Assembly (NCBI GenBank): GCA_964291265.2
Contig: OZ219747.1
Span: 1,568,001 to 1,632,000, forward strand
DNA length: 64,000 nucleotides
Reading direction: 5' to 3'
Source of the DNA: Alphaproteobacteria bacterium
GTDB lineage: Bacteria > Pseudomonadota > Alphaproteobacteria > SP197
A model generated the notes under the pieces. The model was given only the letters and a program-made list of their open reading frames with translations. It did not search any database and had not been told where the DNA came from. This document shows positions 23,235 to 63,054 of the stretch, in pieces (the first letter of the stretch is position 1; each line of letters starts with the position of its first letter). Made by a program: the position numbers and the translations under genes.

Positions 23235-23908
23235 CCGGAAGCGATCGAAGATATCGGCATCATCCCGCTCTTCGAGGGCGTCCTGATCCACGACTGCTGG
23301 GCTGCCTACATGGGCTACGATCAGTGCCGCCACCAACTGTGCGGCAGCCACCTCCTGCGCGAGATGACCTTCGTCGTCGAGTCCGACGGCGACCGCTGGC
23401 GCGATTGATGAAGAGCCTTCTGCGCGAGGCATCCCGCAGGGTCAACAAGAGCGCATCCAAGACCTTGAACGAGGCCGACCGCCGGGCCGTGCGCAAGCGC
23501 TACCGCACCATCCTCACCCAGGGTGCCAGGGAACTGCCCGACATCCCGCCACGGACGATGAGGAACACGTGGACGCATCACAAAGTCCGACGCGCACAAC
23601 CTGCATGAACGTCTCGTGAAACACGAGAAATCCGTCCTGCGCTTCATGAAGGACCCCAATGTCAGTTTCACAAATAATACCGGAGAGCAGAAGATCGGGA
23701 TGACAAAGGTCAAGATCAAGGTGTCTGGATGTTCCCGCACCATGCTCCATGCCAAAGCATGGTGCCGGGGCTCAAACTACCTCACCACCATGGACGCACT
23801 CGGCTACAACCCTCTCGTCGCCATCCACATCGCCCTCGACGGAAAGGCCGTAGACATCCTCAACGAGCACTACGGACAACCAGACCCCAACAAGTGGTGA
23901 GTAGTTAC
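23235..23908 (+). pseudogene. IS66-family transposase C-terminal remnant with right end
   Basis: IHDCWAAY, HQLCGSHLLRE, VLRFMKDPNVSFTNN..KVKIKVSGC; ends GTGAGTAGTTAC (rc GTAAC). Confidence 0.85.
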
Positions 23909-23922
23909 AATGTATGTTGCCA

Positions 23923-28921: not shown

Positions 28922-29840
28922 CCTGACAGGTGGGCTGTGAGGAAGGAAGTTCAACAACTTCGCCGCAAGGCGGTCAATTCGCTGGTGCTCTCGATCGAGC
29001 ACTTCAATTGCCCGTGGGACCGCGGGAGAAGCGAAGCCGTACTCATCTTGCTCGATCACGGCTTCGAGATGCTGCTGAAGGCGGCAATCCGACACCGCCA
29101 GGGGAAGATTCGCAAGCCGGGAGAGAAGCAGACAATCGGATTTGGTGCGTGTGTCCGAAAGGCGCTCACCGAAGCCAGCGTGAAGTTCCTGAGCGACGAG
29201 CAGGCGCTGATGCTGCGGTCGATCAACGGGCAACGCGATGCGGCGCAGCACTATCTGATCGACATGTCGGAGCACCAGCTCTACTTCTACGCGCAGGCGG
29301 GAGTAACGCTGTTCCGAGATATCCACGACGACGTGTTTGACGATGAACTCGTTGTGGAACTCCCCGAGAGAGTTCTGCCGGTGTCGACGACCGCACCCCG
29401 CGACCTGACGGCCCTGTTCGACAACGATGTGGAGGAAATCAAGGGGCTGTTGGTGCCGGGCACCCGAAGGAAGTTGGACGCGCTCGCGAAAGCGCGATGC
29501 CTGGCGGTGCTCGAAGGCGCCGTGAACGGCATCTATGAGCAGCCGAGCGACAGAGAACTCGGGAAAATCTGCACCCGCTTGGCTCGCGGCGAACACTGGA
29601 CCGCTGTCTTCCCGGGTGTTGCCTCCATCAACATCACGGCCGAAGCTGACGGACCGTAAGCGTTCGGCCGTGCGGTGACGGCTGATTTTGGTGGGTTTTG
29701 GGACTGGCTGACAACCGTCTGAGAAAGTGCTGGCAAGCATCCTCAACCGGTCGAATATCGTAACTGCCCAGGTCTGATTTTGCCGAGTCCTGACGGGAGG
29801 TGGATTGATGGCACCGGTCTGGTGGCGCCGAGGAGGGATG

Positions 29841-31383
29841 TCAGAAGCGCAGTTTCGGGATCAGCTGTATGGGATCGGGGTGGGCCAGTGTTTCGAGGAC
29901 ATTCCAGCCCTGCTTTCGGGCGGTGGAGATGACGGATCGCAGGTTGGCGAAGTCGCTCAGCACCCTGCATGGATCGGAAGCCGCCCGAGATTTTCTGGCG
30001 CACCTTGATCATCCGGAAGTCGCGCTCGGCCTGGTTGTTGGAGAACGGGACTTGCGGGTTGGTGAGGAAGCGCAGGCAGCCGTCCTTGTGTTTGCGGAGG
30101 CGGAGCGCGAGGTTGTGGCCGATGCGGCGTTTTCGTCGTCCGCGCTTTCCGGGCTGGAGTGGCGGCCTCTGTTCGTGGGAAGCGATGGCCTTCTCGAGGA
30201 TCCTGTCCCAGGCTTGCGAGATGCGGGCGAGGAGTGAAGCGGGGATGTCGCGGTCGTTCTTGCGGGCGAAGCGGGCGGCTCTGTTGGCACGGGTGAGGAG
30301 CCTGTGCATGGCGGTGGCCCAGTCTTCCTTCTCGATTTCGATCAGAGCCTGGAGTTCGCGCGAGCGATGGGCGTTGCAGGCACCGTGGCGCACGCCCTCG
30401 AGAGTGAAGTAAGTGGCCAAGCGTCATGGATGACGATGCCGTTGAGTGTCTCGTCGATGTGTTTGCGCCCGGTGGCGAGGCGCAGGATGGTGAGCAAGGG
30501 GGTGCACAGCACATGGAGCCAGTGGGTCTCGCCGTTGATGCGGATGCCGGTCTCGTCTGTGGTGTTTGACCGGGGCTTGGGTGCGGATGATCTCTGCGAC
30601 ATGATCGAGGAAGCTCTCGAAGCGCCGGGCGGTGCGCCTGCCCATGGCGGCGATGGTGGCGGTTGAGATCCTGACGGCGAAGAGGTCGCTCATGACCTCG
30701 GCGACGCGCTTCTCGGGAATGAACTGGGCGTGCAACAGGTAGGTCACCCAGGCGGTGATGCGCGGCCCGTACTGGACCGGGGCGCTCACGCCGTGCGGGA
30801 AGGCGGCTGTTGTCACGGCGCCGCAGGCGGCGCAGAGACAGCGATGGGCGCGATGTTCGGTGACCTCGAGGGGCTGCGGCTCGGGCATGTCGAAGACCTG
30901 CCGACAGACGGGTTCTGCGTGACGGTCATCATCCGACAGCGGCGCGCCGCAGCCCTTACAGGCAGACGGAGCATGATCGACGACGTGGTCCGGGTTCTCG
31001 GCCTGCTTCAGGGTGGTTCCCTCGTGGCCGCGCTGACCGCCACTGGGCCTGTCGGACTTGCCGCGCTGGCTCCGGGTGCGCTTCTGTCGGTTTCCGCTCT
31101 TCTTCTTCGGACCGTCGCTGGCCGGTGGCTTGGAGCTGGTGGAGCTGTCGAGCGCGGCGCTGCGCTCGAGTGCATCAATCCGTTCGCGCAAGCCGGTGTT
31201 CTCCCGCTCCAGCGCCTCGATCTCCCCGACCAGCGCCGCGCTCAGGCGCAACATCCCCTGGCCCCATTCCCGGAGGGCCTTGACGGCAGTCACGGCGAAG
31301 GGGTGTGGACTGAACAGGTCCTGAAGGCCCACGAAGGCCTCGTCCTGGGCGGCGATGTCCTCGCGCCAGCGCGAGACGGTCAC
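29841..31383 (-). pseudogene. IS66 TnpC-type transposase, frameshifted
   Basis: DSSTSSKPPASD, GGQRGHEG, CxxC zinc finger, DETG, HGACNAHRSREL, PFSNNQAERDFRMIKVRQKISG. Confidence 0.88.
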
Positions 31384-32049
31384 GAACCCTCCCCGGCCTC
31401 GACGGCCATGATCGCCGCCAGCACTGCCAGACGTTCCCCCGGCGGCATGGCCTCGTAGCGCCGCCCCCAGTTGGCCGCCTTGCGCTTGATGCGCTGGCGG
31501 GCGGTGAAGTTCCGCCCCGCGTAGCGCGACCAGTGCACCCGGTCGGGAGCAAAGTTGAACCATACCACCTCGGTCCGCACCTGGGCCTAGGTCGTCACCT
31601 GCAGCGCCACCCGGCGCCAGCCCGCCAGAAGATCGTCATAGAGCGCTTCACGGGTGGCCCGAGACCATCACCTGGCAGGGCAGGCCCTTGAGCAGTTCAA
31701 GGAGCGCAACATGGTCCACCTCCTCGTACTCGAAGCGGTAGCGCCGCGACGAACGCCGCGTCGCGTGCAGATAGGGCGGATCGCTGTAGACCAGCTCCGG
31801 ACCCAGAAACGGGAACGAAGCCAGGAAGGAGTGAGCACAGCCGTGCACCAACTCCACCGGATAGTCGCACTCAAAGGCCCCAAGCGCACGCTCATCACGG
31901 TCAATCCCGATCGAGCGCACAGACGCAGGCTTGCGCTTCATCAGCGCGCCGCCCCCCAGATGGCTCTCGATATAGACAGAGTGCGGCGGCATCAGCGCAA
32001 TCAGCGCCTGGCACAAACCCGGCGTCGCCTTCGATCCGAAATACCCCAA
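31380..32049 (-). pseudogene. Dam/D12-class N6-adenine DNA methyltransferase, disrupted
   Basis: YFGSK, YIESHLGGGA, YSDPPY, VMVSG, RTEVVWFN; frameshift near 31650 and TAG near 31588. Confidence 0.85.
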
Positions 32050-32242
32050 CGGCCGCTCCCCTCATGACAGAGGGCCACTCATAGGCTCACGGGCCTAGCA
32101 AGTCAAGACGCGCAGAATCAACAAACCGGCGGCACCAAAACGGCACCCAACGCAACCAACGTCAACACAGACTCAGACCTGACGAGGTACCTGGGCAGTT
32201 ACCGAATATCACCAACAATCACCGCGCGACCGAACGCTTACC

Positions 32243-50615: not shown

Positions 50616-50989
50616 GGGGTGGACTCCCGGTGTTCGTGTGGATGCTCATCATGAAACGCCACGGGACTGTCTGTCCACCCAGTTCGCCGAGCGTTACTCC
50701 GGACACATGACTGCTGGTGGCCTGGCAAGGATGCGTCGATTGCGGTCATAGATCGGACACTCTGACCTGATCACCTGAGGTGGTATGTCGCATATCCCAG
50801 GAAATCCACTGTTTTCCCGTGTTTCCGGCTGTTCCGGTGCGGATCTTGCTGAACAGGTGGTGACGGGAACATCCAGTACGTGACGTTCCGCCATGAGCCT
50901 GTCATGACGCCCTGCCCGCCGTTCCAGGGCGCCGATGCCACACGACACGGGTCGCGCCGTTGCCGGCGAGTGACCGCGCGGTCACGCCG

Positions 50990-51225
50990 GGGCCGTCGTC
51001 ACAGCACAAGCAGGCCAACTGGTGGAATGTTGCCGGGTGCAAGCTCCGGCAGGAAGAGAGATGAACCACCACTTTCTCCGTGAACCATGCGTCGGGCGTC
51101 GTAAGGCGAAGCGTTGGTGAGCGGCAGGCGTGGGCCGGGCCATTGAGCCACGAAATGCAGTGAAACCGGAGTGCCGAGGTCGTCCGCTTGGCCGAAGGCA
51201 ACACCCTCGGAGTCGCGTTGGCGAG
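50990..51225 (+). ncRNA. Probable group II intron 5' fragment (domain I region)
   Basis: GCCGGGTGCAAGCTCCGGC, GAACCATGCGTC..GCGAAGCGTTGG, GGCCGGGCCATTGAGCCACGAAAT, GAGTGCCGAGG..CGAAGGCAACAC resemble bacterial group II domain I motifs; no RT ORF or domain V found. Confidence 0.6.
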
Positions 51226-51251
51226 GCAAGCAGGGGCTCGGCGGGGTCCGA

Positions 51252-51394
51252 GAGTTTGTTCCTTATGTCGTCGCTATGCCTATACTGCGCTTAGGTTGGT
51301 CTCAGCCCAAGCCATGGTACCTGACTACATGTGGTATTGTGTATCCAACAGAATACCATGATTCGTGATCACCCGCGACTTTAGGAACAAATTC
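51252..51394. mobile_element. MITE family B directly upstream of mukF
   Basis: TIR GAGTTTGTTCCTTATGTCG / rc GAATTTGTTCCTAAAGTCG; homologous to 33583-33716. Confidence 0.7.
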
Positions 51395-51396
51395 AC

Positions 51397-52755
51397 ATGC
51401 CTCGACATCGCTCATCGGCAACGGGGCACAACGACGAAAGAATGAACGTGTCAGTGGATTCATCCCGGCTTGTCGCTTCGCTGCACCATCTCGGGGCCGC
51501 GCTCGATCTCAAGACAATCGATCTCTGCTTCCTCGCTGCCCTCTACGCCCGGGGCAACCAGCAGGGCCTCAGCGCCCTGGAAGACGAAGACATGGTCGCC
51601 GTGTTCGAGCAGGTCTGCGACCTCGTCGAGCCCGGCGCCGAAAACCCGCGCAGACGGGCGACGCTCGCTATCCAGCGTCTGCGCGAACAGGGTCTCCTCG
51701 CCCGCATCGACGGCGATGGACTGGCCCGGCCCGGTGATTACAGCCTGACGCTCCTGTCCACCGGCATCGTCGAGTTCTTCATTGCCGATAGCCGCGACAT
51801 TCTCGACAGGGACTCCCTCGACCTCCTCACCGGCCAGGTCATAGCCGCTCTCACCGAGGTCCTGAGCGCAGCCCGCCAAGCGCGGACCGGCCAGGAGCGG
51901 GCCGATGCCGTCGTCGGTCCGCTCCGAATCACTGTCAGGGACCTGGTGACGGGCATCGACCGCCGCCAGCGTGGCCTGGAACGCCAGCAGGAGGACCTCA
52001 AGGCCCGCATTTCCGACCTGCTGGCCAAGGACTGGTTCGCGGCCATAGATGAATGCGAGGGTCTGCTCTCGGATTCCGCCAGAGCCCTCGCCGAACTGAA
52101 GACAGTGCTGCTCAGCCGGGTCCACCAGATGCAGGGCCTTCTCCAGGACATCGAACAGGTGGCCGAAGACCAGGACTTCCCCGGAGCCGCCCAGGAGGCC
52201 CAGGAGGTCGCCAGCCATCTCGACCGCATCGCGGCCTGGGGCAATGCCCGCCAGAAGTCCTGGTCCGACTATTACGAGTACATCCATGGCTATCTGCGCG
52301 ATGTCGTGCGCCTGGACCCAGACCGGGCCCTCAGCGAACGCCTGCGCGACCAGGTTGCCGGCTGGCCAGGCAACCGGTTCTTTCTGATCATCCCGCAGCC
52401 GCAGCCCATGCGGGTCCTGCGCGATATGGAGACCCGTATTGAGCGGCCGCCGGTCGTCCGCCCGAGCAAGGACCGCGAGGCCGACCTCGACGACGTGCCG
52501 GACGGCCCGGACCCCGCCGAAATCGTGCAACGGGCCACCGACGCCCTTGCCCGATCACCGGACACGCTCGCAAGCGTGGTGCGCGAGGTCCTGGCCGGGC
52601 TCGACGAGAACCGGCGCTACCCGGCGATTGGAGAGGTCGCAGCCCTGGTCGCAGAGCGTGCCGCGCTGCCGCCCGGCAAGGACCGCCCGTGGGTGACGCT
52701 ACCCGGCGGATACGAGATCGAGGACTGGCCACTGCGCCGGGAGGCCGGGAAATGA
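51397..52755 (+). CDS. mukF: MukF-like kleisin (JetA equivalent)
   Basis: LDLKTIDLCFLAAL, AIQRLREQGLLARID, IDRRQRGLERQQ, DWFAAIDECEGLL, LDRIAAWG, HGYLRDVVRLD..RALSERLR; the true start may be 51441. Confidence 0.88.
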   Translation: MPRHRSSATGHNDERMNVSVDSSRLVASLHHLGAALDLKTIDLCFLAALYARGNQQGLSALEDEDMVAVFEQVCDLVEPGAENPRRRATLAIQRLREQGLLARIDGDGLARPGDYSLTLLSTGIVEFFIADSRDILDRDSLDLLTGQVIAALTEVLSAARQARTGQERADAVVGPLRITVRDLVTGIDRRQRGLERQQEDLKARISDLLAKDWFAAIDECEGLLSDSARALAELKTVLLSRVHQMQGLLQDIEQVAEDQDFPGAAQEAQEVASHLDRIAAWGNARQKSWSDYYEYIHGYLRDVVRLDPDRALSERLRDQVAGWPGNRFFLIIPQPQPMRVLRDMETRIERPPVVRPSKDREADLDDVPDGPDPAEIVQRATDALARSPDTLASVVREVLAGLDENRRYPAIGEVAALVAERAALPPGKDRPWVTLPGGYEIEDWPLRREAGK

Positions 52756-53421
52756 GCGAAGAGAGGTTCCGGCGCCTGGAAGACGTCGTCACCGACTCCC
52801 TCTTCGCCGAGGTCGATATCGGCCTGCGCCGGGGGCGGCACATCAACGCCCATGATGGGGAGCAGTACGGGTTCCTGCGCGATGCGCAGGCTTGGTTGGA
52901 GGACTTTTATGGCCGGTACGATTGCGAGCTGCGCCATGCCGCGGACGGCTACTTCCACCTGGTCCCGTGCGGAGACCGGCTCGGCCGCGCCCGGCTGTCC
53001 GAGGCCGAGATGCTCGTCGGCCAGACGCTCGCCCTGTTTTACCTCGATCCCCGGATCGCTAGCGTCGGCGGCGTCCTGAAGGACGACGAGCTGGTCCGCA
53101 GACTTGAAGCCCTGGTCGGCAGGGGACGGCTGATCTCCGAACTCCGGGGCGGACGCCAGAAACGCAGCGCGGAGAGGGTCGATGAGGAGGGCGTACGCAA
53201 AGCGGTCACGCGCCCTGCGCAGCCTGGACGACCTCGGGTTCGTGGCTTACTCGGCGGACGAGCACGAGATCCGGCTGTATTCGGCCCTGCTCCGGTTTGC
53301 GGAACCGGTCCGGTCGCTTGAGGATCGGTCCCGGGCTCTGGAACGGCTGGTCGCCGAGGGCTCGGTCGAGACCGTCGACACCACAGATGACGACGCCGAC
53401 CTTGCGGAGGAGGAACCATGA
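52752..53421 (+). pseudogene. mukE: MukE-like kite subunit (JetB equivalent), frameshift near 53208
   Basis: FAEVDIGLRRGRHI, LEDFYGRYDCEL, DGYFHLVP, LSEAEMLVGQTLALFYLDP; C-terminus RALRSLDDLGFV..ALLRFAEPVR in another frame. Confidence 0.85.
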
Positions 53422-56400
53422 AACTGGCCTGCAAACGGGTCAGGGCGGCCCAGCTTGCCCTCGTCAACTGGCGCGGTGTGTTCTACGAGCGCTACGAGCT
53501 CAGCGGCACCGTCACCGCTCTGGAAGGGGCGAACGGGGCCGGCAAGACGACGGTCCTTATCGCCGCGTTCGTCGCCTTGCTTCCCGATATGAACCATCTG
53601 CGGTTCACTGCGGCTGGCTCGGGTGGAGACCGCGGGATCTGGGGGCGTCTCGGCGAGGCGGGACGACCGGCCTACGCCGTGCTCGACTTCGCCCTCGCGA
53701 ACGGCGAGCGCTTCCTCGCCGGCGTACGCCTGGAGCGGCGCGCCGAGCCGGCCGTGGAACTGACCCCGTTCTTCATCGAGGACTTTCCGCATGGCGCGCG
53801 GCTCCAGGATCTCCTGCTCCTGCGCGGGACCGAAAAGGACGCTGTCCCGGAGATAGATGAAATCCGGGCGCAGGCCGGCCGCCACGGAGCGAACTTCCAT
53901 GTCTGTGCAACGGCGAAGGAATATTTCGGTGCTCTGTTCGATCGCGGCGTGTCCCCGCTGCGCCTCGAGCGCGAAGGCGATCGCCGGAAGTTCGCAGAGA
54001 TGCTTCGCACCAGCATGACCGGTGGAATGTCGCAGGTCCTGACCACCGGGCTGCGCGCCTTCCTGTTGAAGGAGGAAGGCGGTCTCGCCGCCACTCTGAA
54101 GCGGATGCGCTCCACTATCGACGCCTGCCGGCGCACGCGCGCCGAAGTCGATGACACCCGCAGGCTCGAGGCTGAGATATCCCTCGTCTTGGAGGCGGGC
54201 CAGAACATGTTCCGGGCCGCTGCCCAGGCCACCGAACAGGCCGCCGAGGAAGCGGCCGGAGGCATCGCCGAGGCCGAGGAGGCGCTGCGCCTGGCCGAGC
54301 ACCAGGTCACCGCCGCCGACACGGAACTCGATTCGACCGAAAAGGAGGCCCGCGCGCTTGGCGAGCGTCTGAAGACGCTCGCATCCGCCCTGAAGCAGGC
54401 CGAGGAGCACCGCGGGCGGCTGGAGACCGGGCGCGGCCAGCAGGAGCGCATCGAGCGGGTCGGCGCGGAGATCGAGACCCTTTGTCAGACCCATGGCTGG
54501 GACGGTGACATTCACGCTGACGGCTATGTCGACGTCCGCCGCCGGACGTTGTCCGGCCAGCGCGACGAGGTCCGTGACGAAGCTGCCCGGCTGGAAAAGG
54601 CGCGCAAGGAGACCGAAGCCCGGCTGCGTTCCCTCCAGCAGGCCGGCGGCAGTTTGCCGGCCGCCATCCGCGCCATCGCGGCCCGCCTGGGTGTGCCGAC
54701 GGCCGTGGAGAGGTTCGAGGATATCGCGATCGGCGATGCCGGTGCCCGGCAGGCCCGGCTCGGCCCGCTCGTCGAGGCGGTCCTGGTGGACGACCCGCAG
54801 GCCGCCGCCCGGACCGTGGCTGAAATCGAAGACCGTCCTGACACGGTCTGGCTGGCCCGCCCGGAGGCTCTGGACGGAGGGAAGTCAGGAGACACCGCGC
54901 AGGCTGGCTCTGCCAGCGGTTCCGTCATCGTCCAGAGCGGTCCGGACGTGGTGCGGGTGAGCCGGATCCCGGACCAGCCCGTGCTCGGGCGCCGGGCTCG
55001 CGAGACCCGCATCCGGGCTCTCGAAGACGAATTGGCCCGCACCGCCGCCGAAATCCGGGCTCTGGAGGGCCGGTTCGCCGCTCTTGACCGCGAACGCGAC
55101 GCTCTCGACAGTCTCCAGAGGAAGCAGGCCGATATCACCGCCGCCCGCAACACGCTTGCCGGACTCGGCATCGAGAATGCGGGCGAAGCGGCCTTGGCGA
55201 GCGCCCGCGAACGCCTCGACGAGTGCCGCCGCAGCCACGGCGAAGCCGACAGTCTGTCGCGCAAGCTGCAAAGCCGGCAAGCGGTGCTTCAGCACAGTCT
55301 GGAACAACGGCGTCAGGATCACACCCAAGCCCGTCAGGCCCTGAACGAGCGTCGTGCGACCGCAGAACCCGCGCGGCAGCGCTGGGAGCGTCTGCGCGCC
55401 GAGGCCGACGGCCTGCTTGCCGGTCTGTCCGGTGCGAGGGAAGCGCAGCGGGCCGCCGTGCGCGGCAGCGTCGCACTGTATGGCGAAGCACGCGCCCATG
55501 CCGAGAGGCTTCACGAGCGTCTCACCCGTGCCGAGCCAGGCGGCGAAGCCGCCAACGTGATCGACGGGCTTTTCCGTCTTGAGGACGGAGCCCGGTCGGG
55601 TGTGGCTTACCTGCGCGCCTGGCGCGAGGTGTGCGTCTGGATTCAGCGCCGCGTCCCCGCTCAGATCGCCCAGATGGACGACCCTCTGGAGGCGCTCACG
55701 AGGCTCCGCAGCCAGCTGGGTGATCTTCAGGATCGTCTCGTGCGCCAGGAAGCCGACCTTCAAGGCAACACAGCTGACGTGGCCAATGTGATCGGGGTGC
55801 ATATCCGCGGGGCGGACCGGGAGGTCGCCAAGCTCAACATGGACCTCGCCGGGGTCCGGTTCGGCAGCATTGCCGGGGTCAGGCTGCGGCTGGGCCGCGT
55901 GTCGGAGATGATCAACATCTTGGACGCCCTCCGGGAGAGAGAAGACCAGGGCAGCCTGTTCGCTGCCGATCGTCCCCTGGAAGAAACTCTGGACGACCTC
56001 CTCCATAAATATGCGGGCGGGCGGGCGCAGGGAGAGCGGCTGCTCGATTATCGCGAGTATGTCGACCCGCGCGTCGAGGTCCAGCGGAATTCCGGGATCG
56101 ACTGGGAAGCCGCAAACCCCAACCGCCTCTCAACCGGAGAGAGCATCGGAATCGGGGCGGCCCTCATGATGGTAGTGCTCACGGCATGGGAGCACGACGC
56201 CCGCCCGTTCAAGGCCCGGAGCGCTGAAAGCACGCTCAGGCTTCTCCTTCTCGACGAGGCGAACCGGCTTGACCGCGACAATCTTGGAATGCTCTTCGAC
56301 CTCTGCGCCAGCCTCGACCTTCAGCTGCTGGTAGCGTCCCCCGAGGTCGTGCGGGCGGAAGGCAACACGACCTACCGCCTGGTGCGCGTAGCCGACGGCG

Positions 56401-56453
56401 AGCGCGGCGGAGAGGTCCGGGTCACCGGCCGGCGCGCTGTCCGGGCCGCGTGA
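53418..56453 (+). CDS. mukB: MukB-like SMC ATPase with shortened arms (JetC equivalent)
   Basis: LVNWRG, Walker A GANGAGKTT, LLPD, MukB-type hinge (..FEDIAI..ARLGPLVEAVLVDD..VLGRRARETRI), LLDYREY, signature LSTGESIG, Walker B LLLDEANRLD, QLLVASPE. Confidence 0.92.
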   Translation: MKLACKRVRAAQLALVNWRGVFYERYELSGTVTALEGANGAGKTTVLIAAFVALLPDMNHLRFTAAGSGGDRGIWGRLGEAGRPAYAVLDFALANGERFLAGVRLERRAEPAVELTPFFIEDFPHGARLQDLLLLRGTEKDAVPEIDEIRAQAGRHGANFHVCATAKEYFGALFDRGVSPLRLEREGDRRKFAEMLRTSMTGGMSQVLTTGLRAFLLKEEGGLAATLKRMRSTIDACRRTRAEVDDTRRLEAEISLVLEAGQNMFRAAAQATEQAAEEAAGGIAEAEEALRLAEHQVTAADTELDSTEKEARALGERLKTLASALKQAEEHRGRLETGRGQQERIERVGAEIETLCQTHGWDGDIHADGYVDVRRRTLSGQRDEVRDEAARLEKARKETEARLRSLQQAGGSLPAAIRAIAARLGVPTAVERFEDIAIGDAGARQARLGPLVEAVLVDDPQAAARTVAEIEDRPDTVWLARPEALDGGKSGDTAQAGSASGSVIVQSGPDVVRVSRIPDQPVLGRRARETRIRALEDELARTAAEIRALEGRFAALDRERDALDSLQRKQADITAARNTLAGLGIENAGEAALASARERLDECRRSHGEADSLSRKLQSRQAVLQHSLEQRRQDHTQARQALNERRATAEPARQRWERLRAEADGLLAGLSGAREAQRAAVRGSVALYGEARAHAERLHERLTRAEPGGEAANVIDGLFRLEDGARSGVAYLRAWREVCVWIQRRVPAQIAQMDDPLEALTRLRSQLGDLQDRLVRQEADLQGNTADVANVIGVHIRGADREVAKLNMDLAGVRFGSIAGVRLRLGRVSEMINILDALREREDQGSLFAADRPLEETLDDLLHKYAGGRAQGERLLDYREYVDPRVEVQRNSGIDWEAANPNRLSTGESIGIGAALMMVVLTAWEHDARPFKARSAESTLRLLLLDEANRLDRDNLGMLFDLCASLDLQLLVASPEVVRAEGNTTYRLVRVADGERGGEVRVTGRRAVRAA

Positions 56454-57441
56454 TGTGGGACCGGGATGAGAACAGGCTTGCGCTGGTCGAGCTGGTTCAC
56501 GAGGGACGTCTGAGCCTCCGGGAGGGATAGAGAGCCGCATGGGAGTTTGCCGCCGGTCTTCGCTGGACCAGGACCACGGGCCGACGCAACGAACTCAAGC
56601 TTGTCCCTGCGCTCCGGGCCGATGCCGAGGACATGCTCGACGGACGCTGGCCCGAATGGCGCGCCGTCCGGGCGCGACTGGTCGATGCCGGCCTGCCGGT
56701 AACCCACGAGGGCTGGAAGCGCCTCCGGGATCAGGACCGGGCCTCCCGGGCCGGGGTTCTGCCGGGGCGCCTCAACGCCAGGACGGCGGCCGCCCTGGTC
56801 GGGCCGCACTCGAAGGCCGGGCTCACCGGTGCGCGCCGTGCGGGTCTCGACGGCATCGAGCTCACGGATGATGGCATCGCGCGGCTTCGTCCGAACCGGG
56901 GCCTGATTCTCCAGACCGCTTCCTGTCGGGTTGCAGCGTCCCTGCTCGTTGGGGTCGCGGGCGAGGTTGCGCTGAACGAAAGGGCGCTCCGGGACGGCAC
57001 CCGACTCGCGGGGGACCGCCCGCGCGCGGTTCTGACCGTCGAAAACCTCGGGCCGTTTATGGACATCCAAGCATCTGCCGACTGGATGGTCGTTCACGTC
57101 CCCGGATGGAACACCGCCACGGCCATGCGGGTTCTGGACCAGGTTGAGGACACCCCCCTGGTTCATTTCGGCGATCTGGATCCTGAGGGGGCCCGGATCG
57201 TGGGACACCTGAGGCAGCGCTACCCTCGGCTGCATGGGCGGCGCCAGACTTCTGGAGGGAATGTCTGCCGGATCGAGCACAACGCAAGCTATGGCCCGAT
57301 GGCCTGGATCTCTCCGGGGCGCCCGGCCTCGTGCAGGACCTGCAGCACCAAGGACTGTGGCTCGAGCAGGAGACAATCACCCTGGATCCGCGGCTACCGG
57401 GAGCCCTCGAGGCGTTCGCGCTGTCTGGAACCTGTTTCTGA
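56453..57441 (+). pseudogene. jetD: JetD/MksG-like Toprim nuclease (DUF2220), disrupted
   Basis: TGATG-coupled to mukB; VLTVENLGPF, PGWN, HFGDLDPEGARI, terminal WLEQE; TAG at 56528-56530 and frameshift near 57232. Confidence 0.85.
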
Positions 57442-57459
57442 ACGGGGGGTCTGGCTGCA

Positions 57460-57540
57460 TGGGGAGTGGTATCCCCACTTCCACTGCCTCGTTCCCAACG
57501 GCGGCTTCAACATCAACTCCGGAGCGTGGAAGGCGGGGCT
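57460..57540 (+). pseudogene. IS91-family HUH transposase micro-fragment
   Basis: WYPHFHCLVPNGG matches the IS91 'HPHxHxLVxxGG' motif. Confidence 0.5.
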
Positions 57541-57587
57541 CCCATTCCTCATGGGTCACAATGCACGGCCTCCTCAGGCAGGCCGAG

Positions 57588-58469
57588 TTAACAGTGCCCG
57601 TTGCCGGGTTGCCAGTAGACAATTTCCATCGGTAAGTTCTTCGAGTCGCACCTTGATTGCTTGGGAAGAGTTTCAAATTGACTCAACCATCCCCTCTTGG
57701 CGGTTACCGCCGCTGCCAGTGCGTCAATCACGTCAGTTCTACCAACACCCTTTCCAGACAAACTGACACGGCCGTCCTCAACTATATGCTTTGACTTTTT
57801 CTCGACCCTATGAAGGGCATCGAGTCGCTCCTTTTTCCCTTCGGTTTTCCTCTTCCTGTGCAGCATGGGTCTTCCATTGTTCAGTGCGAAAAAGCAGATT
57901 TCAGGATGTGTTTCCCTGACCCTTGGGCCATCAGGGCGCGGCAACAAAACATCAACTTCGGCAATTTTATCTGCGATTGCCAATGTTTGTGCAGAAAGGG
58001 ATTTCCCTGTGACTTGACGCTGAATACTCCTGGCGACTGCATGGCGAATTTGCCTGGCTATCTGGCGCCTGGCATCCTGAGCGATATCTGGCTTCAATTG
58101 CTTGTATGGCATCGCCTTCATGACTTGATATAGGTGACATTGGACCGCCTCGATGATATCTCCACAACAGGAAAAGTCCTGATAATACTTGATAACGGCT
58201 CTGACAGGAGTCGGGAAGACGGTGGACCCCCTTCCGTGCCCGCTCTGATTCAGCAATTTCCTGGCTTGCTTGTCACAGCACCTTTCCTCTCCACCATCTG
58301 GCAATCCAATTGGGATATCCACCAAGATGAGTTGGGCGCTCTTGTAGTGTTTCAGCAAGTTGTCGAATCTGGAAAAAGTTTTTAACTCATAGTTTTCATT
58401 GGAATCAAGGCCGACGCTGAACCAGCCGGCGGGACATCCGTCCACTCCCACAAACTGACTGTCGGGCAT
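57588..58469 (-). CDS. DUF429 family (RNase H-like) protein
   Basis: VGVDGCPAGW, VDIPIGL, CDKQARKLL, ETHPEICF, DVIDALAAA, PMEIVY; visibly lower GC than the flanks. Confidence 0.85.
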   Translation of the reverse strand: MPDSQFVGVDGCPAGWFSVGLDSNENYELKTFSRFDNLLKHYKSAQLILVDIPIGLPDGGEERCCDKQARKLLNQSGHGRGSTVFPTPVRAVIKYYQDFSCCGDIIEAVQCHLYQVMKAMPYKQLKPDIAQDARRQIARQIRHAVARSIQRQVTGKSLSAQTLAIADKIAEVDVLLPRPDGPRVRETHPEICFFALNNGRPMLHRKRKTEGKKERLDALHRVEKKSKHIVEDGRVSLSGKGVGRTDVIDALAAAVTAKRGWLSQFETLPKQSRCDSKNLPMEIVYWQPGNGHC

Positions 58470-58567
58470 GCCATTATCCCCTCGCGCATCGTTCGAGCTC
58501 ACCTTAAGTCGCGTACGTGCACGAAGACAAGGTCTATGTCCGTATCCGGTTTTGGTAAGGTGCGACC

Positions 58568-59326
58568 ATGCACTGCGCGAGTCATGACGAAAGGGTAGTG
58601 GCACCATCGTACGTGCGGTTGCACCACTCGTGGCCTCCCATCCCGGGGGATGTCTGGAAAGTACGGCGTGAAATCCGCTGCATCTTCAACGACGCCGTCG
58701 CCCTCCTCACCGCACGCTCCGGCGGCAAGGGGCCGAGAACATCGCCACACTGCGAGGAAGCCTGGCACGCCGTACGCCACTACCTCGCCCATGACCGCCG
58801 CCTGCCAGACCGTTGCCTGGACGCTTGCCGACAGCACGGCCTCGTCGCCGCCGACGAACGCAGAAACGCCGTCTTCACATGCACCAACGCACAAAGAGAT
58901 ATCTCCGGCGCCGAGATCGTCGGTACCGTCCCCAACGCAGACGGAAAGCAGTACAGAGCCATGGCGCGTGGATCACGCAAGGCCGCCGGCAGCTTCTGGA
59001 TCCCCGTGGACCGCTCCATGCCACGCACCATCATCATCACCGAAAGCGCCATCGACGCCCTCTCCGCATGGTGCCTCAAGGAATGTCGGCAATCCGCTAC
59101 CGTGATCCTGTCAACCGCCGGCATCGCTTACCGTCTCCCAACATGGGCCGAAGCCTGGACGCCAAAGCGCATCCTCGTCGCCTTCGACGCCGATCCCGTC
59201 GGAGAACAGGCCGCCGAGCGCCTCGTCAGCCAAGACCCAAGAGCTCTCCGCATGAGACCCCCAGACGGACACAAAGACTGGAACGACGTCCTCAAGGCAC
59301 GAACACCAGCCTTCCCTTCCAAGTAG
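58568..59326 (+). pseudogene. Toprim/DUF3991-type primase-like protein of plasmid/ICE origin, probably 5'-truncated
   Basis: VRHYLAHDRRLP, NAVF, GAEIVG, ESAIDALS, STAG, AFDADPVG, KDWNDVL. Confidence 0.7.
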
Positions 59327-59379
59327 CCTTCAAGAACCGCAAACCAAGCGCAGCGCGAAAGCTCATGTCCACTAAATTG

Positions 59380-60231
59380 CCCGATCAACGCATCATCAAT
59401 CTGCCTGAAGGCGCTCAGGCGCAGTGCCGTCAGCTCGCTCTTCTGTTCAGCATTCTGGCACTTCAGAGCGTCCCTTTCCCGCTCCAGCGCCTCCGCCAGG
59501 GCCTGTCCCCGCTTCACCTCCCGGCGAGCCTTTTTGAGCTGATCACGAGTGCGGTCGAGATGAAACTTGAATGTGCCCGCACAGGCACGGGCAGAATTCT
59601 TCGCACAGCACAATTCCGCATGCTCGCATCCGCCGCATCCGCACGAACCGGGAGCGATTCTCATACGGGGTAATTTTGTTTAATGTTTCCCGAGTGTTTC
59701 ATCATATGGGCCATGCCGCCGTCCTTCTCGGAAACATCTACGTAAGTTCCTCATAAGTCGCCCTTTGACAGTCTTCGGAACACCTTTGAACCAATAGTAC
59801 TGATGAAACGTAGCCGTGATGACAACCGCCAGGCACGGGTCAAATTAAGTCCGAATATGCGTCTAATTCCTGAATCTTGATACAGCACTCAGAAAAATGC
59901 GGGCAGATAACAGGCAAACAGCGAACTTTACAAGTACATAACTGGCACAAACAACGAACATATTACCCCGTACGAGAACCACACCCCACGAACCCGCTCC
60001 GCTTCATAGAGCGCACGCCAGTCAGACGCCTCGCATGACAAGGCCGCTGGCGCCCGACATAGGCCGTCGCCACCTCCCGTCAGATGCTGTGTCGCTCCGC
60101 GTGTCTCGGTAAAAGTCTCCATGCCTCGGCCATAATCGAGACCAGGCCGACTTACCGGCCCTTTCTCAGACGATTGTCAGCGAGCCCCAAACCAACCAGA
60201 ATCAGCCATCATCGCGCGGCCGAACGCCTAC
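59380..60231 (-). pseudogene. IS66-type left end and coiled-coil transposase N-terminus, interrupted by a MITE
   Basis: End GTAGGCGTTCGGCCGCGCG at 60231 homologous over ~90 bp to 29656 onward; METFTET...DWRALYEAERVR; coiled coil continues below 59650. Confidence 0.6.
59656..59980. mobile_element. AT-rich MITE family C (~325 bp)
   Basis: TIR GATTCTCATACGGGGTAAT / rc GGTTCTCGTACGGGGTAAT; no ORF; no clear TSD. Confidence 0.7.
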
Positions 60232-60235
60232 TGGT

Positions 60236-60445
60236 TCATCTATGGATAGGATGATACCGGAAAGGATCGCTCGGTCCTCCCAGTCCCTTACGCTCCACCA
60301 GATTGCGACTTATCAACAGCCGGCAATCGCCATTGACACGTTGTTGATAGCTGCCTGGACCGAATAGAACCTTGGCCAACTCGCTCTCGGTGAGTCCCGG
60401 TTTTTTCTCGATCAAGTCAAGCAGTCTTTCAATAATGGTAGCCAT
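60236..60445 (-). CDS. Small winged-HTH-like hypothetical protein
   Basis: MATIIERLLDLIEKKPGLTESELAKVLFG..QQRVNGDCRLL..LVERKG; lower GC; AGGA RBS. Confidence 0.6.
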   Translation of the reverse strand: MATIIERLLDLIEKKPGLTESELAKVLFGPGSYQQRVNGDCRLLISRNLVERKGLGGPSDPFRYHPIHR

Positions 60446-60743
60446 CGACGTTCCTTGTACAAGGGGTTGGATCGATAGTGCTCGAAGGGTCTTGCAACGG
60501 CATCCGGCGTCGGATTGGGATCATCGTCTATACCGTGTTTGGTTGCCGAGAGCCAGCCTTCTATCGCGCCTGAATCAAGCGGCGCTGCGTCCAGCAACGG
60601 CGCGTCATGCGCTGGGTCCGGCGATAGCGCGACGACATGGAGTCCCGGATCTTGTGCTCTGCACAGGCTCGGCCCAACGGACACAACCGGCATGCGAGAC
60701 GGAAGCCGGCCTTCGTCCAGACATTGCTTCAGTCGAGGGCCGG

Positions 60744-61538
60744 TCAGGTCAGGAACTTGGTGAAGCCGCCGTCGACGTTCCAGCAGGCGCCGGTCACGAA
60801 GCTCGCCCGTTCCGACGCGAGGAAGGCGACGACGCCGGCCACCTCGTCCGGCCGGCCGTAGCGCTTGATCATCAGCATCTGGGCGGCGAGGTTGCCGAAC
60901 ACCTCGTCGACGTTCTCGCCGGCCGTGCCGACGAAATTGTCTTCCGCGATGCGCTCCCACAGTGGCGTGTGGATGAGCGCCGGGTTGACCGCGTTCACCC
61001 GGATGCCCTCGTCCGCCAGGTCCTGAGCCAGGGTCTTGGTCATCGCAAGCATCGCCGCCTTGGCGGAATTGTAGTCCGCCATGCCGGCGAGACCGCTGTG
61101 GCCGCTCACCGAAGCGACATTGACGATTGAGCCGCCGTTCTGCTTGCGGATCAACGGCACCGCGGCGCGCGTCGCCCGGACCGCGCTCCAGAAATTGATG
61201 TTGTGGGTCTGCTCCCAGACCTCGTCCGGGTCCTCGACGGTCCGGCCGACCGCGGCGTCTCCGGCGTTGTTCACCAGAATGTCCAGCCGACCGAAGTGCG
61301 CAGCGGTGTCGTTGACGAAACGCTCGATATCGGCGCGCTCGCTCATGTCGGCGACGCAGGAGAAGACCTCGCCGCCAGCCGCCTCGATCACCGCTCTGGT
61401 CTCGTCGAGCGGGGCCTTGCGGCGCGCGCAGATCGAAACCCTGGCGCCTTCCCGGGCCAACTCCATCGCGATCGCCTGGCCGAGGCCCAGGCTCGAGGCC
61501 GTCACGGCGGCAACCTTGCCGTTCAATCCGAGATCCAT
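60744..61538 (-). CDS. SDR family oxidoreductase
   Basis: TASSLGLG, LVNNAG, YNSAK, IRVNAVNP, VDGG. Confidence 0.93.
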   Translation of the reverse strand: MDLGLNGKVAAVTASSLGLGQAIAMELAREGARVSICARRKAPLDETRAVIEAAGGEVFSCVADMSERADIERFVNDTAAHFGRLDILVNNAGDAAVGRTVEDPDEVWEQTHNINFWSAVRATRAAVPLIRKQNGGSIVNVASVSGHSGLAGMADYNSAKAAMLAMTKTLAQDLADEGIRVNAVNPALIHTPLWERIAEDNFVGTAGENVDEVFGNLAAQMLMIKRYGRPDEVAGVVAFLASERASFVTGACWNVDGGFTKFLT

Positions 61539-61588
61539 TGTCCGTTTCCTTTGCAGTGTGGTCCTCAGGTTCTGACCGGGCGCTTTCC

Positions 61589-62581
61589 CTAGAAGGCCGG
61601 GCTCAACCGGTGCTTGGGATACTCCGCCCCGACGACATGCTGAATGGTGATGGCGCGTACCATCTGGTAGGTCCGGATGCGGAAGGCCGGGTCGCAGGAC
61701 ATGCGGATGTAGGTGTCCTGAGGTTTGACGCCGTAATCCTCGCTCAGCCAGTCGATCATGTTGGCGCAGGCGTCGTAGACGGCCTGCTCCATGGGCAGGT
61801 TGATGCCGACAGCGACGATGCTCTCCGGCTTGACGATCCGCACGGTCGGCTGGCGCCTGTTCTTGATGACGGCGCAGTTGAGCTGCACGGTAGCGCGCGT
61901 CTCGTCGGCGATGCCGGTGAACTCCGTATCGCCCTGCCCGCCGTGGATGTCTCCGATGTAGAGCAATCCGCCCTCGTGGTAGGAATTGAGCAGGATCGTG
62001 TGGCCGGGCGCCACATCGCGACAGTCGATGTTGCCACCGAACGGGCCCTGGCCGAGCAGGGAGGTGAACACTTCGCGCTCGGGCGCGGTCGCGAGCGTTC
62101 CGCAGAAAGGCTCCAGATCCCAGGTCAGCTTGTCGGAGTACTTGCCCTTGCCGTCCCGCGTCTTGCCGCTCGGACCGGGCAGGTGTTCGATGACCTGGAC
62201 CCGCGGCTCGGCGCACTGACCTCCCCAGCGGGACGACTCGCCGTAGGGCCCGATGCCGGGGAGGATGCCCGAAAAGCCGTAGCGCCATGGGTCGATGAAC
62301 TCGAGGTTCACGGCGAGGACATCGCCGGCTTCGCAGCCCTCGACGTAGATCGGACCGACCACGGGATTGTACTTGGGCGGCCATGCCGCGTTCAGCGCAT
62401 CGACATGGGCATCGCCGACGAACTGGTGCACCACGGGGTTGTCGCTGTCGTCTTCGATGAGGCCCGACAGCGCGTCATCGGTCTCGATCTGGAATGACTC
62501 GTCCTGCCTGACGCGAAGCACGGGCTCGTCCCGCGCATCGAATGCGTACTTCGTGACTTCGCCCCGCTTGATGATCTGCAT
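61589..62581 (-). CDS. Acetamidase/formamidase family protein
   Basis: GPIYVEGCEAGDVL, GGNIDC, GGLLYIGDIHGGQGDTE; AGGAGG RBS. Confidence 0.9.
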   Translation of the reverse strand: MQIIKRGEVTKYAFDARDEPVLRVRQDESFQIETDDALSGLIEDDSDNPVVHQFVGDAHVDALNAAWPPKYNPVVGPIYVEGCEAGDVLAVNLEFIDPWRYGFSGILPGIGPYGESSRWGGQCAEPRVQVIEHLPGPSGKTRDGKGKYSDKLTWDLEPFCGTLATAPEREVFTSLLGQGPFGGNIDCRDVAPGHTILLNSYHEGGLLYIGDIHGGQGDTEFTGIADETRATVQLNCAVIKNRRQPTVRIVKPESIVAVGINLPMEQAVYDACANMIDWLSEDYGVKPQDTYIRMSCDPAFRIRTYQMVRAITIQHVVGAEYPKHRLSPAF

Positions 62582-62769
62582 CGATCGGCCTCCTTGGGTT
62601 CGATGGATGGCCGGACTGCGGTTCGACCGGCACGTTGCGTGTTCCGTATCAGTGAAACCATACGATACCGAGCGCACCGAAGTAAACTTCGCCTTGTGTC
62701 TCGAAGCGCCGCCGGCCGGAGAGTCCCGCGGCACGGCACTCCGGCGCAGTCTGCCGATGCGCTGAGCCA

Positions 62770-63020
62770 GCCGGCTTTGGTGGGTCGCGGCCCGGATGAA
62801 GGACATGAACAGGAAGTCCGTCGCAACAGGGCGACTCCTCGGTTCGCAACCGTACGCCGACGAGCCAGGGTTGGCCCTCCAGCTCGACGATTTCCGGCAG
62901 CGCGCGCCGTCTGACGGACAGGCCGGAGAGGCGCAGGCCCGCCGCCTCCAGCCGCTCGCGACAGGCGATGTTGACCTCGCAGCGGTGGCGCTCGCTGATC
63001 GTGGTCTCGACGGAGAGCGC
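62770..63020 (-). pseudogene. pyrG: CTP synthase (pyrG) C-terminal fragment
   Basis: ISERHRCEVNIACRERLEAAGLRLSG..LPEIVELEGQPWLVGV, then FMSFIRAA; degenerate match to the PyrG glutaminase C-terminus. Confidence 0.75.
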
Positions 63021-63054
63021 ATCTGGCTGAATCAGCAAGCCGTGTGGCGAGGCG

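What the first reader, a model, noticed from the sequence alone, without database searches (positions are those of the whole stretch)
51397..57441. MukFEB condensin operon coupled to a JetD nuclease: MukBEF-type Wadjet-like system
Seen: four genes linked by ATGA/ATGA/TGATG overlaps. The first three carry motifs of true MukF, MukE and MukB rather than generic JetABC/MksBEF; the fourth has JetD Toprim motifs (VEN, HFGDLDPEG, LEQE). The locus lies in a mobile island in an apparently non-gammaproteobacterial genome. Established: housekeeping MukBEF of enteric gammaproteobacteria has no nuclease partner, whereas Wadjet JetABCD cleaves plasmids. Inference: a horizontally moving anti-plasmid system bridging Wadjet and MukBEF. 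Related Muk-like Wadjet loci may have been noted in other phyla, so novelty needs checking.
Basis: partly seen in the sequence, partly recalled or inferred. Interest (0 to 1): 0.85.

Follow-up and report, generated by a model that had tools for sequence, protein, structure and literature searches.

The report
Elbow-less MukBEF-type Wadjet operon, broken copy
Four overlapping genes join relatives of the E. coli chromosome-folding proteins MukF, MukE and MukB to a JetD-type nuclease gene, likely a plasmid-cutting defence system of an already catalogued kind, but this copy has two broken genes and its MukB belongs to a conserved lineage with arms half the usual length that lacks the elbow region.

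Summary
In detail: mukF-mukE-mukB-jetD overlap as described. The arrangement is not new. At least 8 such 'FEBG' operons stand in Data S1 of Bürmann 2025, and this scan noted it before on other DNA. jetD follows mukB in 40 of 41 complete metagenome loci. The host has smc and scpA; 0 of 60 relatives carry this mukB. This copy is likely dead: mukE has a frameshift, jetD a stop and a frameshift. The lesions recur in one run's contigs; a ~98% sister copy has both frames open. It belongs to a clade of 24 sequence clusters that lack the E. coli-equivalent stretches ~363-614 and ~826-1032, apparently in register and spanning the elbow. Arm length is about 227 aa against 459, below all MukB and MksB values in a 2017 survey. 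I found no report of it. Best reading: a MukBEF-clade Wadjet that likely cuts small circular DNA with a naturally elbow-less motor. Function is untested.

The parts
51442..52755 (+). mukF-type kleisin, 437 aa, intact (the ORF also opens at the upstream ATG 51397)
   Evidence: Pfam MukF_M and KicB, NF003615 281 bits; 94% identical to L001
52752..53421 (+). mukE-type KITE gene, broken by a 2-nt deletion at ~53208
   Evidence: MukE hits on both sides of the shift; alignment to intact L001; run X1 carries the lesion, X2 does not
53418..56453 (+). mukB-type SMC ATPase, 1011 aa, intact Walker A (GANGAGKT), signature (LSTGE) and Walker B (LLLLDEA); short-arm clade
54470..54510 (+). approximate junction of the ~253-aa N-strand arm deletion (after codon ~357; E. 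coli-equivalent ~363-614)
   Evidence: the position is uncertain by several codons
55110..55150 (+). approximate junction of the ~209-aa C-strand arm deletion (after codon ~570; E. coli-equivalent ~823/826-1029/1032)
   Evidence: the position is uncertain by several codons
56453..57441 (+). jetD/mksG-type Toprim nuclease gene (329 codons), broken by TAG at 56528-56530 and a 1-nt deletion at ~57233
   Evidence: JetD_C hit; acidic residues invariant and aligned to MksG E236/D279/D281/E349/E351; lesions
50693..63044 (.). variable insertion site between the HD-domain gene and an MFS transporter; holds the operon and unrelated cargo
   Evidence: five congeners match up to ~50692 and again from ~63044; the two flanks lie ~130 bp apart in G010
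51041..51256 (+). group II intron fragment (domain I-IV piece) just upstream of mukF
   Evidence: Rfam RF02005, 111.6 bits

Best explanation
This is a MukBEF-clade Wadjet operon (mukF-mukE-mukB-jetD) whose intact form would likely load on DNA, extrude a loop with ATP and trigger the JetD-type nuclease when a small circle has been fully pulled through, and this copy is likely inactive because mukE and jetD are broken. Shown: gene identities, overlaps, lesions, conservation of jetD after mukB, host smc and scpA, patchy distribution, and two conserved deletions in MukB that remove the region holding the elbow in E. coli MukB. Inferred from Wadjet I/II and MukBEF: dimer-of-dimers assembly, loop extrusion, activation of JetD on complete extrusion, plasmids as the target. 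Inferred from the alignment and published register points: the two deletions are in register and leave a short arm with a MukB-type channel-less hinge. Such a motor would still extrude and cut naked circles but would likely pass large DNA-bound obstacles poorly.
For: Profiles: MukB 653 bits against JetC 68 bits; JetD_C above cut-off. jetD follows mukB in 40 of 41 complete loci. Catalytic E197, D241, D243, E305 and E307 are invariant in 95 of 95 JetD rows and align to MksG E236, D279, D281, E349 and E351. Defence context: 11 of 12 long-family loci chosen for long flanks have a PADLOC hit at E<=1e-8, 7 of 12 a multi-gene system; CBASS-like genes flank the Burkholderia plasmid copy. Host smc is over the cut-off and scpA is present; L001's genome also has smc. 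mukB not found in 60 of 60 relatives, PF04310 not found in 400 of 400 class genomes or in 25 family genomes of L001's host. dN/dS window vs L001 is 0.21-0.39 for the four genes. Short arm: 24 of 24 clusters share both gaps; monophyly on head domains alone 99/96; segment lengths around both junctions are identical in 23 of 23 rows; E. coli elbow segments match the long-family profile collinearly (13-26 bits) but not the short one (<=5.3 bits). The AlphaFold model keeps long helices across the arm and its hinge matches the MukB hinge (TM 0.75 on 2wmm). [quoted passage not shown]
Against: No member of this family has been assayed in anything I read. The N-terminal half of this JetD matches no known JetD model, so its coupling to the motor may differ. 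The defence-neighbour count has no background control, three of the loci are close kin, and none is of the short clade. The in-register claim rests on a few published or construct-derived register points, not on coordinates; 26 of 88 pairwise alignments split the gaps differently. The model's pTM is only 0.39. B. subtilis Smc works only at certain arm lengths. Arm dN/dS is 0.56-0.58, higher than in the heads. The window's own neighbours are not a defence cluster.
Confidence: 0.7

Rival explanations
1. The intact system is a defence nuclease complex whose main target is not plasmids but phage DNA or replication intermediates, possibly acting by killing the cell.
For: In three related loci it lies in one run with Lamassu and type III restriction genes; the JetD N-terminal half is unlike known JetD; T7 gp5.9 targets MukBEF.
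Against: The Wadjet I and II systems that were tested cut circular, not linear, DNA; the four-gene layout and catalytic residues are those of Wadjet.
Confidence: 0.12
2. The arm deletion abolished processive loop extrusion, and the short clade works as a static DNA clamp or sensor that switches on JetD, or it is slowly decaying.
For: Arms are shorter than every MukB or MksB value seen in the 2017 tables; several cluster members are fragments; this copy is broken; arm dN/dS is ~0.57.
Against: ATPase motifs are intact, arm segment lengths are fixed across sequences as little as 53% identical, the length is near the permitted 238-aa Smc mode, and engineered Wadjet I without the elbow-to-hinge part still cleaves.
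Confidence: 0.1
3. The operon is an auxiliary chromosome organiser like MukBEF or MksBEF, with jetD a passenger.
For: The subunits are closest to MukBEF among solved structures; in this copy jetD carries two lesions while mukF and mukB are intact.
Against: mukE is broken too; the host has smc and scpA; distribution is sporadic; jetD is kept in 40 of 41 loci with invariant catalytic residues; no cmoM-type housekeeping context as in E. coli.
Confidence: 0.05
4. The window's copy is really intact, and the three lesions are assembly errors or are bypassed by recoding.
For: A ~98% identical copy in run X2 has open frames at both indels.
Against: Run X1's contigs bridge all three places with 0 differences from the window. 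X1 may be the source sample, so this checks the assembly and is not an independent strain. Three lesions in two genes would need three separate recoding events.
Confidence: 0.03

Closest known systems
'FEBG' Wadjet-group operons with MukB-type SMC in Bürmann et al. 2025 Data S1 (PMC7617805), e.g. Sorangium cellulosum So ce56 CAN95859-56, Bradymonas sediminis AWV89346-43, P. aeruginosa NCMG1179 GAA19675-72
   Same: Gene order F-E-B-G, ~440-aa kleisin, ~325-aa nuclease, the same N-terminal MukB motif.
   Different: The 8 that I retrieved have MksB of 1445-1482 aa (from the table's coordinates); here it is 1011 aa with both arm strands shortened. The window's copy is broken.
Canonical MukBEF (E. 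coli, Photorhabdus thracensis)
   Same: MukF, MukE and MukB domains, order mukF-mukE-mukB, MukB-type hinge; best structural matches are MukBEF.
   Different: It has no nuclease gene, sits after cmoM on the chromosome and replaces Smc-ScpAB; its arm is 452 aa with an elbow at 427/970. Here: jetD present, host keeps smc, arm ~227 aa, elbow region absent, scores below the NCBIfam equivalog cut-offs.
Wadjet type I JetABCD (E. coli GF4-3, P. aeruginosa PA14) and MksBEFG (C. glutamicum)
   Same: Four-gene kleisin-KITE-SMC-Toprim layout; nuclease catalytic residues conserved.
   Different: No JetA hit, JetB 17 bits, JetC <=72 bits, JetD matched only in the Toprim half; type I has a hinge channel and an elbow.
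Wadjet type II (Neobacillus vireti)
   Same: Channel-less, MukB-like hinge and a MukBEF-like dimer geometry; next-best structural match after MukB.
   Different: Type II has a tandem KITE and long arms (~410 Å); here a single ~223-aa KITE and an arm I estimate at ~250 Å.

Membership tests
Wadjet/MksBEFG group (broad) | Co-directional kleisin, KITE, SMC and Toprim nuclease genes | tested here: met
   40 of 41 complete loci
Wadjet/MksBEFG group (broad) | SMC with Walker A, signature and Walker B, longer than 890 aa (Bürmann's filter) | tested here: met
   1011 aa
Wadjet/MksBEFG group (broad) | JetD/MksG metal-binding and distal acidic residues | tested here: met
   E197, D241, D243, E305, E307 invariant in 95 of 95 rows and aligned to MksG
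Wadjet/MksBEFG group (broad) | ATP-dependent cleavage of circular DNA and plasmid restriction | not testable with these tools
   needs an assay of an intact operon
Wadjet/MksBEFG group (broad) | All four subunits intact in this copy | tested here: not met
   mukE frameshift; jetD stop and frameshift; met by L001
Wadjet types I-III (PADLOC models) | Type-specific JetA, JetB, JetC and JetD profile matches | tested here: not met
   JetA none, JetB 16.7 bits, JetC <=72 bits, JetD <=33 bits on the intact twin; window
Wadjet types I-III (PADLOC models) | Head domains group with JetC | tested here: not met
   72 Muk-type rows form one side (SH-aLRT 95) apart from 6 JetC-like rows; quick tree with long branches, and no type II or III reference was chosen as such
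Canonical MukBEF | MukF, MukE and MukB domains in the order mukFEB | tested here: met
Canonical MukBEF | NCBIfam equivalog cut-offs and membership of the enteric MukB clade | tested here: not met
   281<407, 653<699; canonical MukB is a separate clade, 100/100
Canonical MukBEF | No nuclease gene; replaces Smc-ScpAB | tested here: not met
   jetD present; smc and scpA present; scpB not searched
Canonical MukBEF | Long arm (~452 aa) with an elbow at 427/970 | tested here: not met
MukB-type FEBG operons (Bürmann 2025 Data S1) | MukB-type head with FEBG order and a ~325-aa MksG | tested here: met
   head tree joins short and long families, 100/100 against MukB
MukB-type FEBG operons (Bürmann 2025 Data S1) | Position in the published tree | not testable with these tools
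   the figure is not held, and a search of Data S1 for CAN95857 gave no hit in the tree file
MukB-type FEBG operons (Bürmann 2025 Data S1) | MksB of ~1445-1482 aa, as in the 8 retrieved (typical, not a stated criterion) | tested here: not met
   1011 aa

The most novel reading that the evidence does not exclude
The short clade is a working, naturally elbow-less MukBEF-type motor: one in-register excision halved the arms (about 459 to 227 aa) while keeping MukB's channel-less hinge. It would be the smallest Muk/Mks-type motor in the surveys I could check, an exception to the published trend that channel-less hinges go with long arms, and a Wadjet that stalls at, and perhaps cuts next to, DNA-bound obstacles that the long form threads through.
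Probability: 0.45. Interest if true: 0.72.

Novelty: new variant of a known kind. Interest (0 to 1): 0.5.

Why it matters
Two open questions become testable with one natural pair. First, whether MukBEF descends from a plasmid-cutting Wadjet: this family is the closest nuclease-bearing relative of MukB in my tree, and I found no assay of it. Second, what the SMC elbow and arm length are for: the short clade and its long sister group differ by a clean ~253/~209-residue excision, so they are a natural test of elbow-dependent models of loop extrusion and of obstacle bypass by a motor with neither a hinge channel nor a long arm. Practically, PADLOC's Wadjet models barely see these operons, so such systems are probably under-counted. 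The window's own copy is a fresh pseudogene; L001 is the one to study.

Tried and rejected
Short MukB as decay of this copy: rejected, since 24 clusters share the same gaps. Lesions as assembly error: largely rejected; whether X2 or X3 carry the jetD stop was not visible because the table was cut. Nesting of the short clade inside the long family: the free tree nests it (98/100 with a long sister group), but the AU test does not reject the long rows being one clade (p=0.33); derivation by deletion rests on E. coli MukB and the long family sharing the long arm. 14 near-duplicate rows and all JetC and Smc rows were dropped; L126 was dropped. No match in 50,697 phage records; 1 family-level match among 17 hits in the plasmid collection. 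No RNA holder listed. The genome-contig scan with a single protein gave only L001. The first AlphaFold model (23 rows, pLDDT 60.5) was too weak. No complex prediction of JetD with MukE and no VIA alignment were available, so neither binding nor the structural register was tested. A Data S1 motif search with other words returned mostly unrelated SMCs. Deep 2022 and the journal version of Bürmann 2019 are not held. A recalled 'type IV Wadjet' label was not borne out's listing or (0 occurrences). Congeners hold unrelated cargo at the same site (Fic/DUF4172, PhzF-like, molybdopterin-binding), so the site is not a defence hotspot on this evidence.
Full report
Observation. Four co-directional genes overlap as described: ATGA at 52752, ATGA at 53418, TGATG at 56451. 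Profiles call them MukF (MukF_M 80 bits; NF003615 281 bits), MukE (84 bits), MukB (N-terminal domain 211 bits, hinge 99 bits; NF003422 653 bits in three stretches) and JetD_C (34 bits, cut-off 22). PADLOC's Wadjet models see them poorly: no JetA hit, best JetC 68 bits, best JetD 31 bits, and much the same on the intact twin. The mukF start is probably 51442.

This copy is broken. Against L001, an intact operon 89% identical in DNA from a record titled Alphaproteobacteria, the window lacks 2 nt in mukE at ~53208 and 1 nt in jetD at ~57233, and has TAG at jetD codon 26, where 38 of 40 rows have Gln. Contigs of run X1 bridge all three places with no difference from the window; run X2, about 98% identical, has open frames at both indels. 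X1 may be the source sample. dN/dS against L001 is 0.21 (mukF), 0.27 (5' mukE), 0.39 (mukB) and 0.30 (jetD to the shift), so the loss is recent.

Context. The genome has smc over the TIGR02168 cut-off and scpA; scpB was not searched. The MukB was not found in 60 relatives, 22 of them congeners, and PF04310 not in 400 genomes of the class. In the phylum sample 26 of 400 genomes carry it, at canonical-type scores. Five congeners match the window up to ~50692 and again from ~63044, and in G010 the two flanks lie ~130 bp apart, so the operon sits in a 12-kb variable site. Its neighbours there are a group II intron fragment, DUF429, a DUF3991/Toprim piece, a short-chain dehydrogenase and an amidase. 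Beyond repeats, the likeness to L001 covers only 51413-57410, and L001's copy lies among transposases. A related short-arm copy at ~90% identity is in run X4, labelled sponge metagenome, whose contig crosses the N-strand junction without gaps.

The family. MukF homologues at ~50% identity occur in myxobacteria, planctomycetes, Burkholderia and Xanthomonas by source names; 449 cluster representatives match at E<=0.001. Of 80 metagenome loci fetched, 41 reach at least 300 nt past the end of mukB, and 40 of these have jetD next. The nuclease keeps E197, D241, D243, E305 and E307 in 95 of 95 rows. By counting along the alignment these equal MksG E236, D279, D281, E349 and E351; E236A and D279A impair MksG (PMC10123090, passages). 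Its N-terminal half matches no JetD model. Of 12 loci picked for long flanks, 11 have a PADLOC hit and 7 a multi-gene system (restriction types I and III, Lamassu, AbiE, Gabija); three are close kin and there is no background control.

What is known. Bürmann et al. 2025 (PMC7617805; passages, supplementary legends and searches of Data S1; figures and tree not seen) place MukBEF in the Wadjet group and map nuclease loss on a tree. Their table lists at least 8 FEBG operons whose MksB has the MukB-type N-terminal motif, with MksB of 1445-1482 aa. My motif search is not exhaustive: an earlier scan note names a Shewanella row that it did not retrieve. The hypothesis that MukBEF is a domesticated Wadjet appears in PMC10586767, 10.1101/2025.03.10.642339 and 10.1101/2022.10.04.510915 (passages); the type II preprint still names three Wadjet types. 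At least six earlier notes of this scan describe this operon type on other DNA, five of them at 6.5-7.6 kb.

What is new: a half-length MukB. Of the 120 best MukB homologues listed, 96 are 1439-1485 aa and 24 are short: 21 at 1010-1020 aa, two with C-terminal extensions and one partial. All 24 lack the same two blocks, E. coli-equivalent ~363-614 and ~826-1032. In 62 of 88 pairwise alignments there are exactly two gaps, with medians 253 and 209 aa; the other 26 split them. The E. coli elbow maps to residues 427 and 970 and the elbow crystal construct is 333-526 plus 893-1053 (10.1101/464701, passages). From these points 363 pairs with about 1023-1034, and from the hinge ends 614 pairs with about 815-835 (my arithmetic; the hinge-construct ranges are partly recalled), so the deletions look in register. 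As a control, E. coli segments inside the deleted blocks match a profile of the long family collinearly (13-26 bits) but not a profile of the short clade (<=5.3 bits), while the hinge and two flanking segments match both; two short segments beside the junctions match neither. A long sister protein aligns to MukB in one stretch, the short profile in three. On head domains alone the short rows are one clade (99/96), sister to four long rows (98/100); an AU test does not exclude their lying outside the long family (p=0.33). Segment lengths around both junctions are the same in 23 of 23 rows, and the hydrophobic 3-4 pattern runs on across the C-strand junction. With the arm measure of Bürmann 2017, which my mapping reproduces for E. 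coli (452), the long family is 459 and the short clade 226-228.5. The lowest values in that paper's tables are 323 for MukB (n=179; I saw the first 6 and last 59 rows of a descending list) and 240 for MksB (all 75 rows) (PMC5344682, supplement); prokaryotic Smc has a mode at 238. The second AlphaFold model (120 rows, pLDDT 76.7, pTM 0.39) gives helices 223-359, 370-408, 525-582 and 590-662 around a hinge that matches the MukB hinge (TM 0.75); its top seven structural matches are MukBEF chains. The breaks at 360-369 and 583-589 now lie close together and might form a new bend; this is untested. jetD follows the short mukB in the window and L001; for 12 of 22 other short clusters a JetD homologue has the same longest-contig length, a proxy only, and one of the 12 is L001 itself. 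Paper searches and scan look-ups returned no description of such a short MukB. Subscription papers, among them Petrushenko 2011 and Deep 2022, and bioRxiv supplements were not seen, and a short member could hide among Data S1 rows that I did not retrieve.

Mechanism. Inferred from Wadjet I and II: the MukF dimer holds two MukB-MukE motors, which load on DNA and extrude a loop; on a small circle they meet and stall, and JetD cuts; chromosomes and linear DNA escape. Liu et al. 2025 (PMC12647877; passages and section 13) show that Wadjet I still cleaves without its elbow-to-hinge segment but loses obstacle bypass, and note that SMCs with channel-less hinges, MukBEF among them, tend to have long arms, save a few Wadjet III cases. 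That makes a working short MukB plausible, and less surprising than it would have been, and it makes the short clade an exception to the trend. I put 0.7 on plasmid-cutting Wadjet with this copy inactive, 0.12 on another DNA target, 0.10 on a non-extruding or decaying short form, 0.05 on a chromosome role and 0.03 on the copy being intact.

Verdict. Real; a new variant of a known kind. The operon type is catalogued but, in what I read, unnamed and unassayed. The elbow-less short-arm clade appears undescribed and gives a natural test of arm length and elbow function. Interest 0.5.

Noticed in passing
L015:3822-7257, L028:6510-9945, L038:7580-9939: A Lamassu system (LmuA/LmuC/LmuB), itself SMC-like, and type III restriction genes lie upstream of mukF on the same strand; in L028 and L038 lmuB ends just before mukF.
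   Followed up: partly
L084:8460-15141: The only one of 41 complete loci with mukFEB (MukB 1493 aa) but no jetD hit after it: a possible independent nuclease loss.
   Followed up: partly
L085:7457-14168 (Burkholderia plasmid NZ_CP091309.1): CBASS-like genes (nucleotidyltransferase, ThiF, Mov34, SAVED) and a WYL gene precede a long-family operon carried on an 880-kb plasmid.
   Followed up: no
L020, L027, L040, L061, L065, L074: Several long-family copies are split or truncated in mukE or mukB, and several short-clade cluster members are fragments, so decay of this system seems common.
   Followed up: no
window 51041-51256: Group II intron fragment; related pieces occur in congeners and near L001's operon.
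   Followed up: partly
window 58568-59326: DUF3991 plus Toprim primase-like piece of a mobile element, with many short matches in G005.
   Followed up: no
window 57588-58607 (-): DUF429 gene in a lower-GC stretch, facing jetD tail to tail.
   Followed up: no
window ~23250-23910 and ~29760-32110: Stretches 69-81% identical to repeat and IS66-type sequence beside L001's operon, a hint that the two hosts share mobile elements.
   Followed up: no
G000 C2, eight places: ARAGORN calls eight 101-nt 'tRNA-Arg(acg)' items of equal length, probably a repeat family and not tRNAs.
   Followed up: no
PMC5344682 supplement, MukB sheet: Five entries classed as MukB have arms of 323-329 aa, an intermediate length class that I did not identify.
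   Followed up: no
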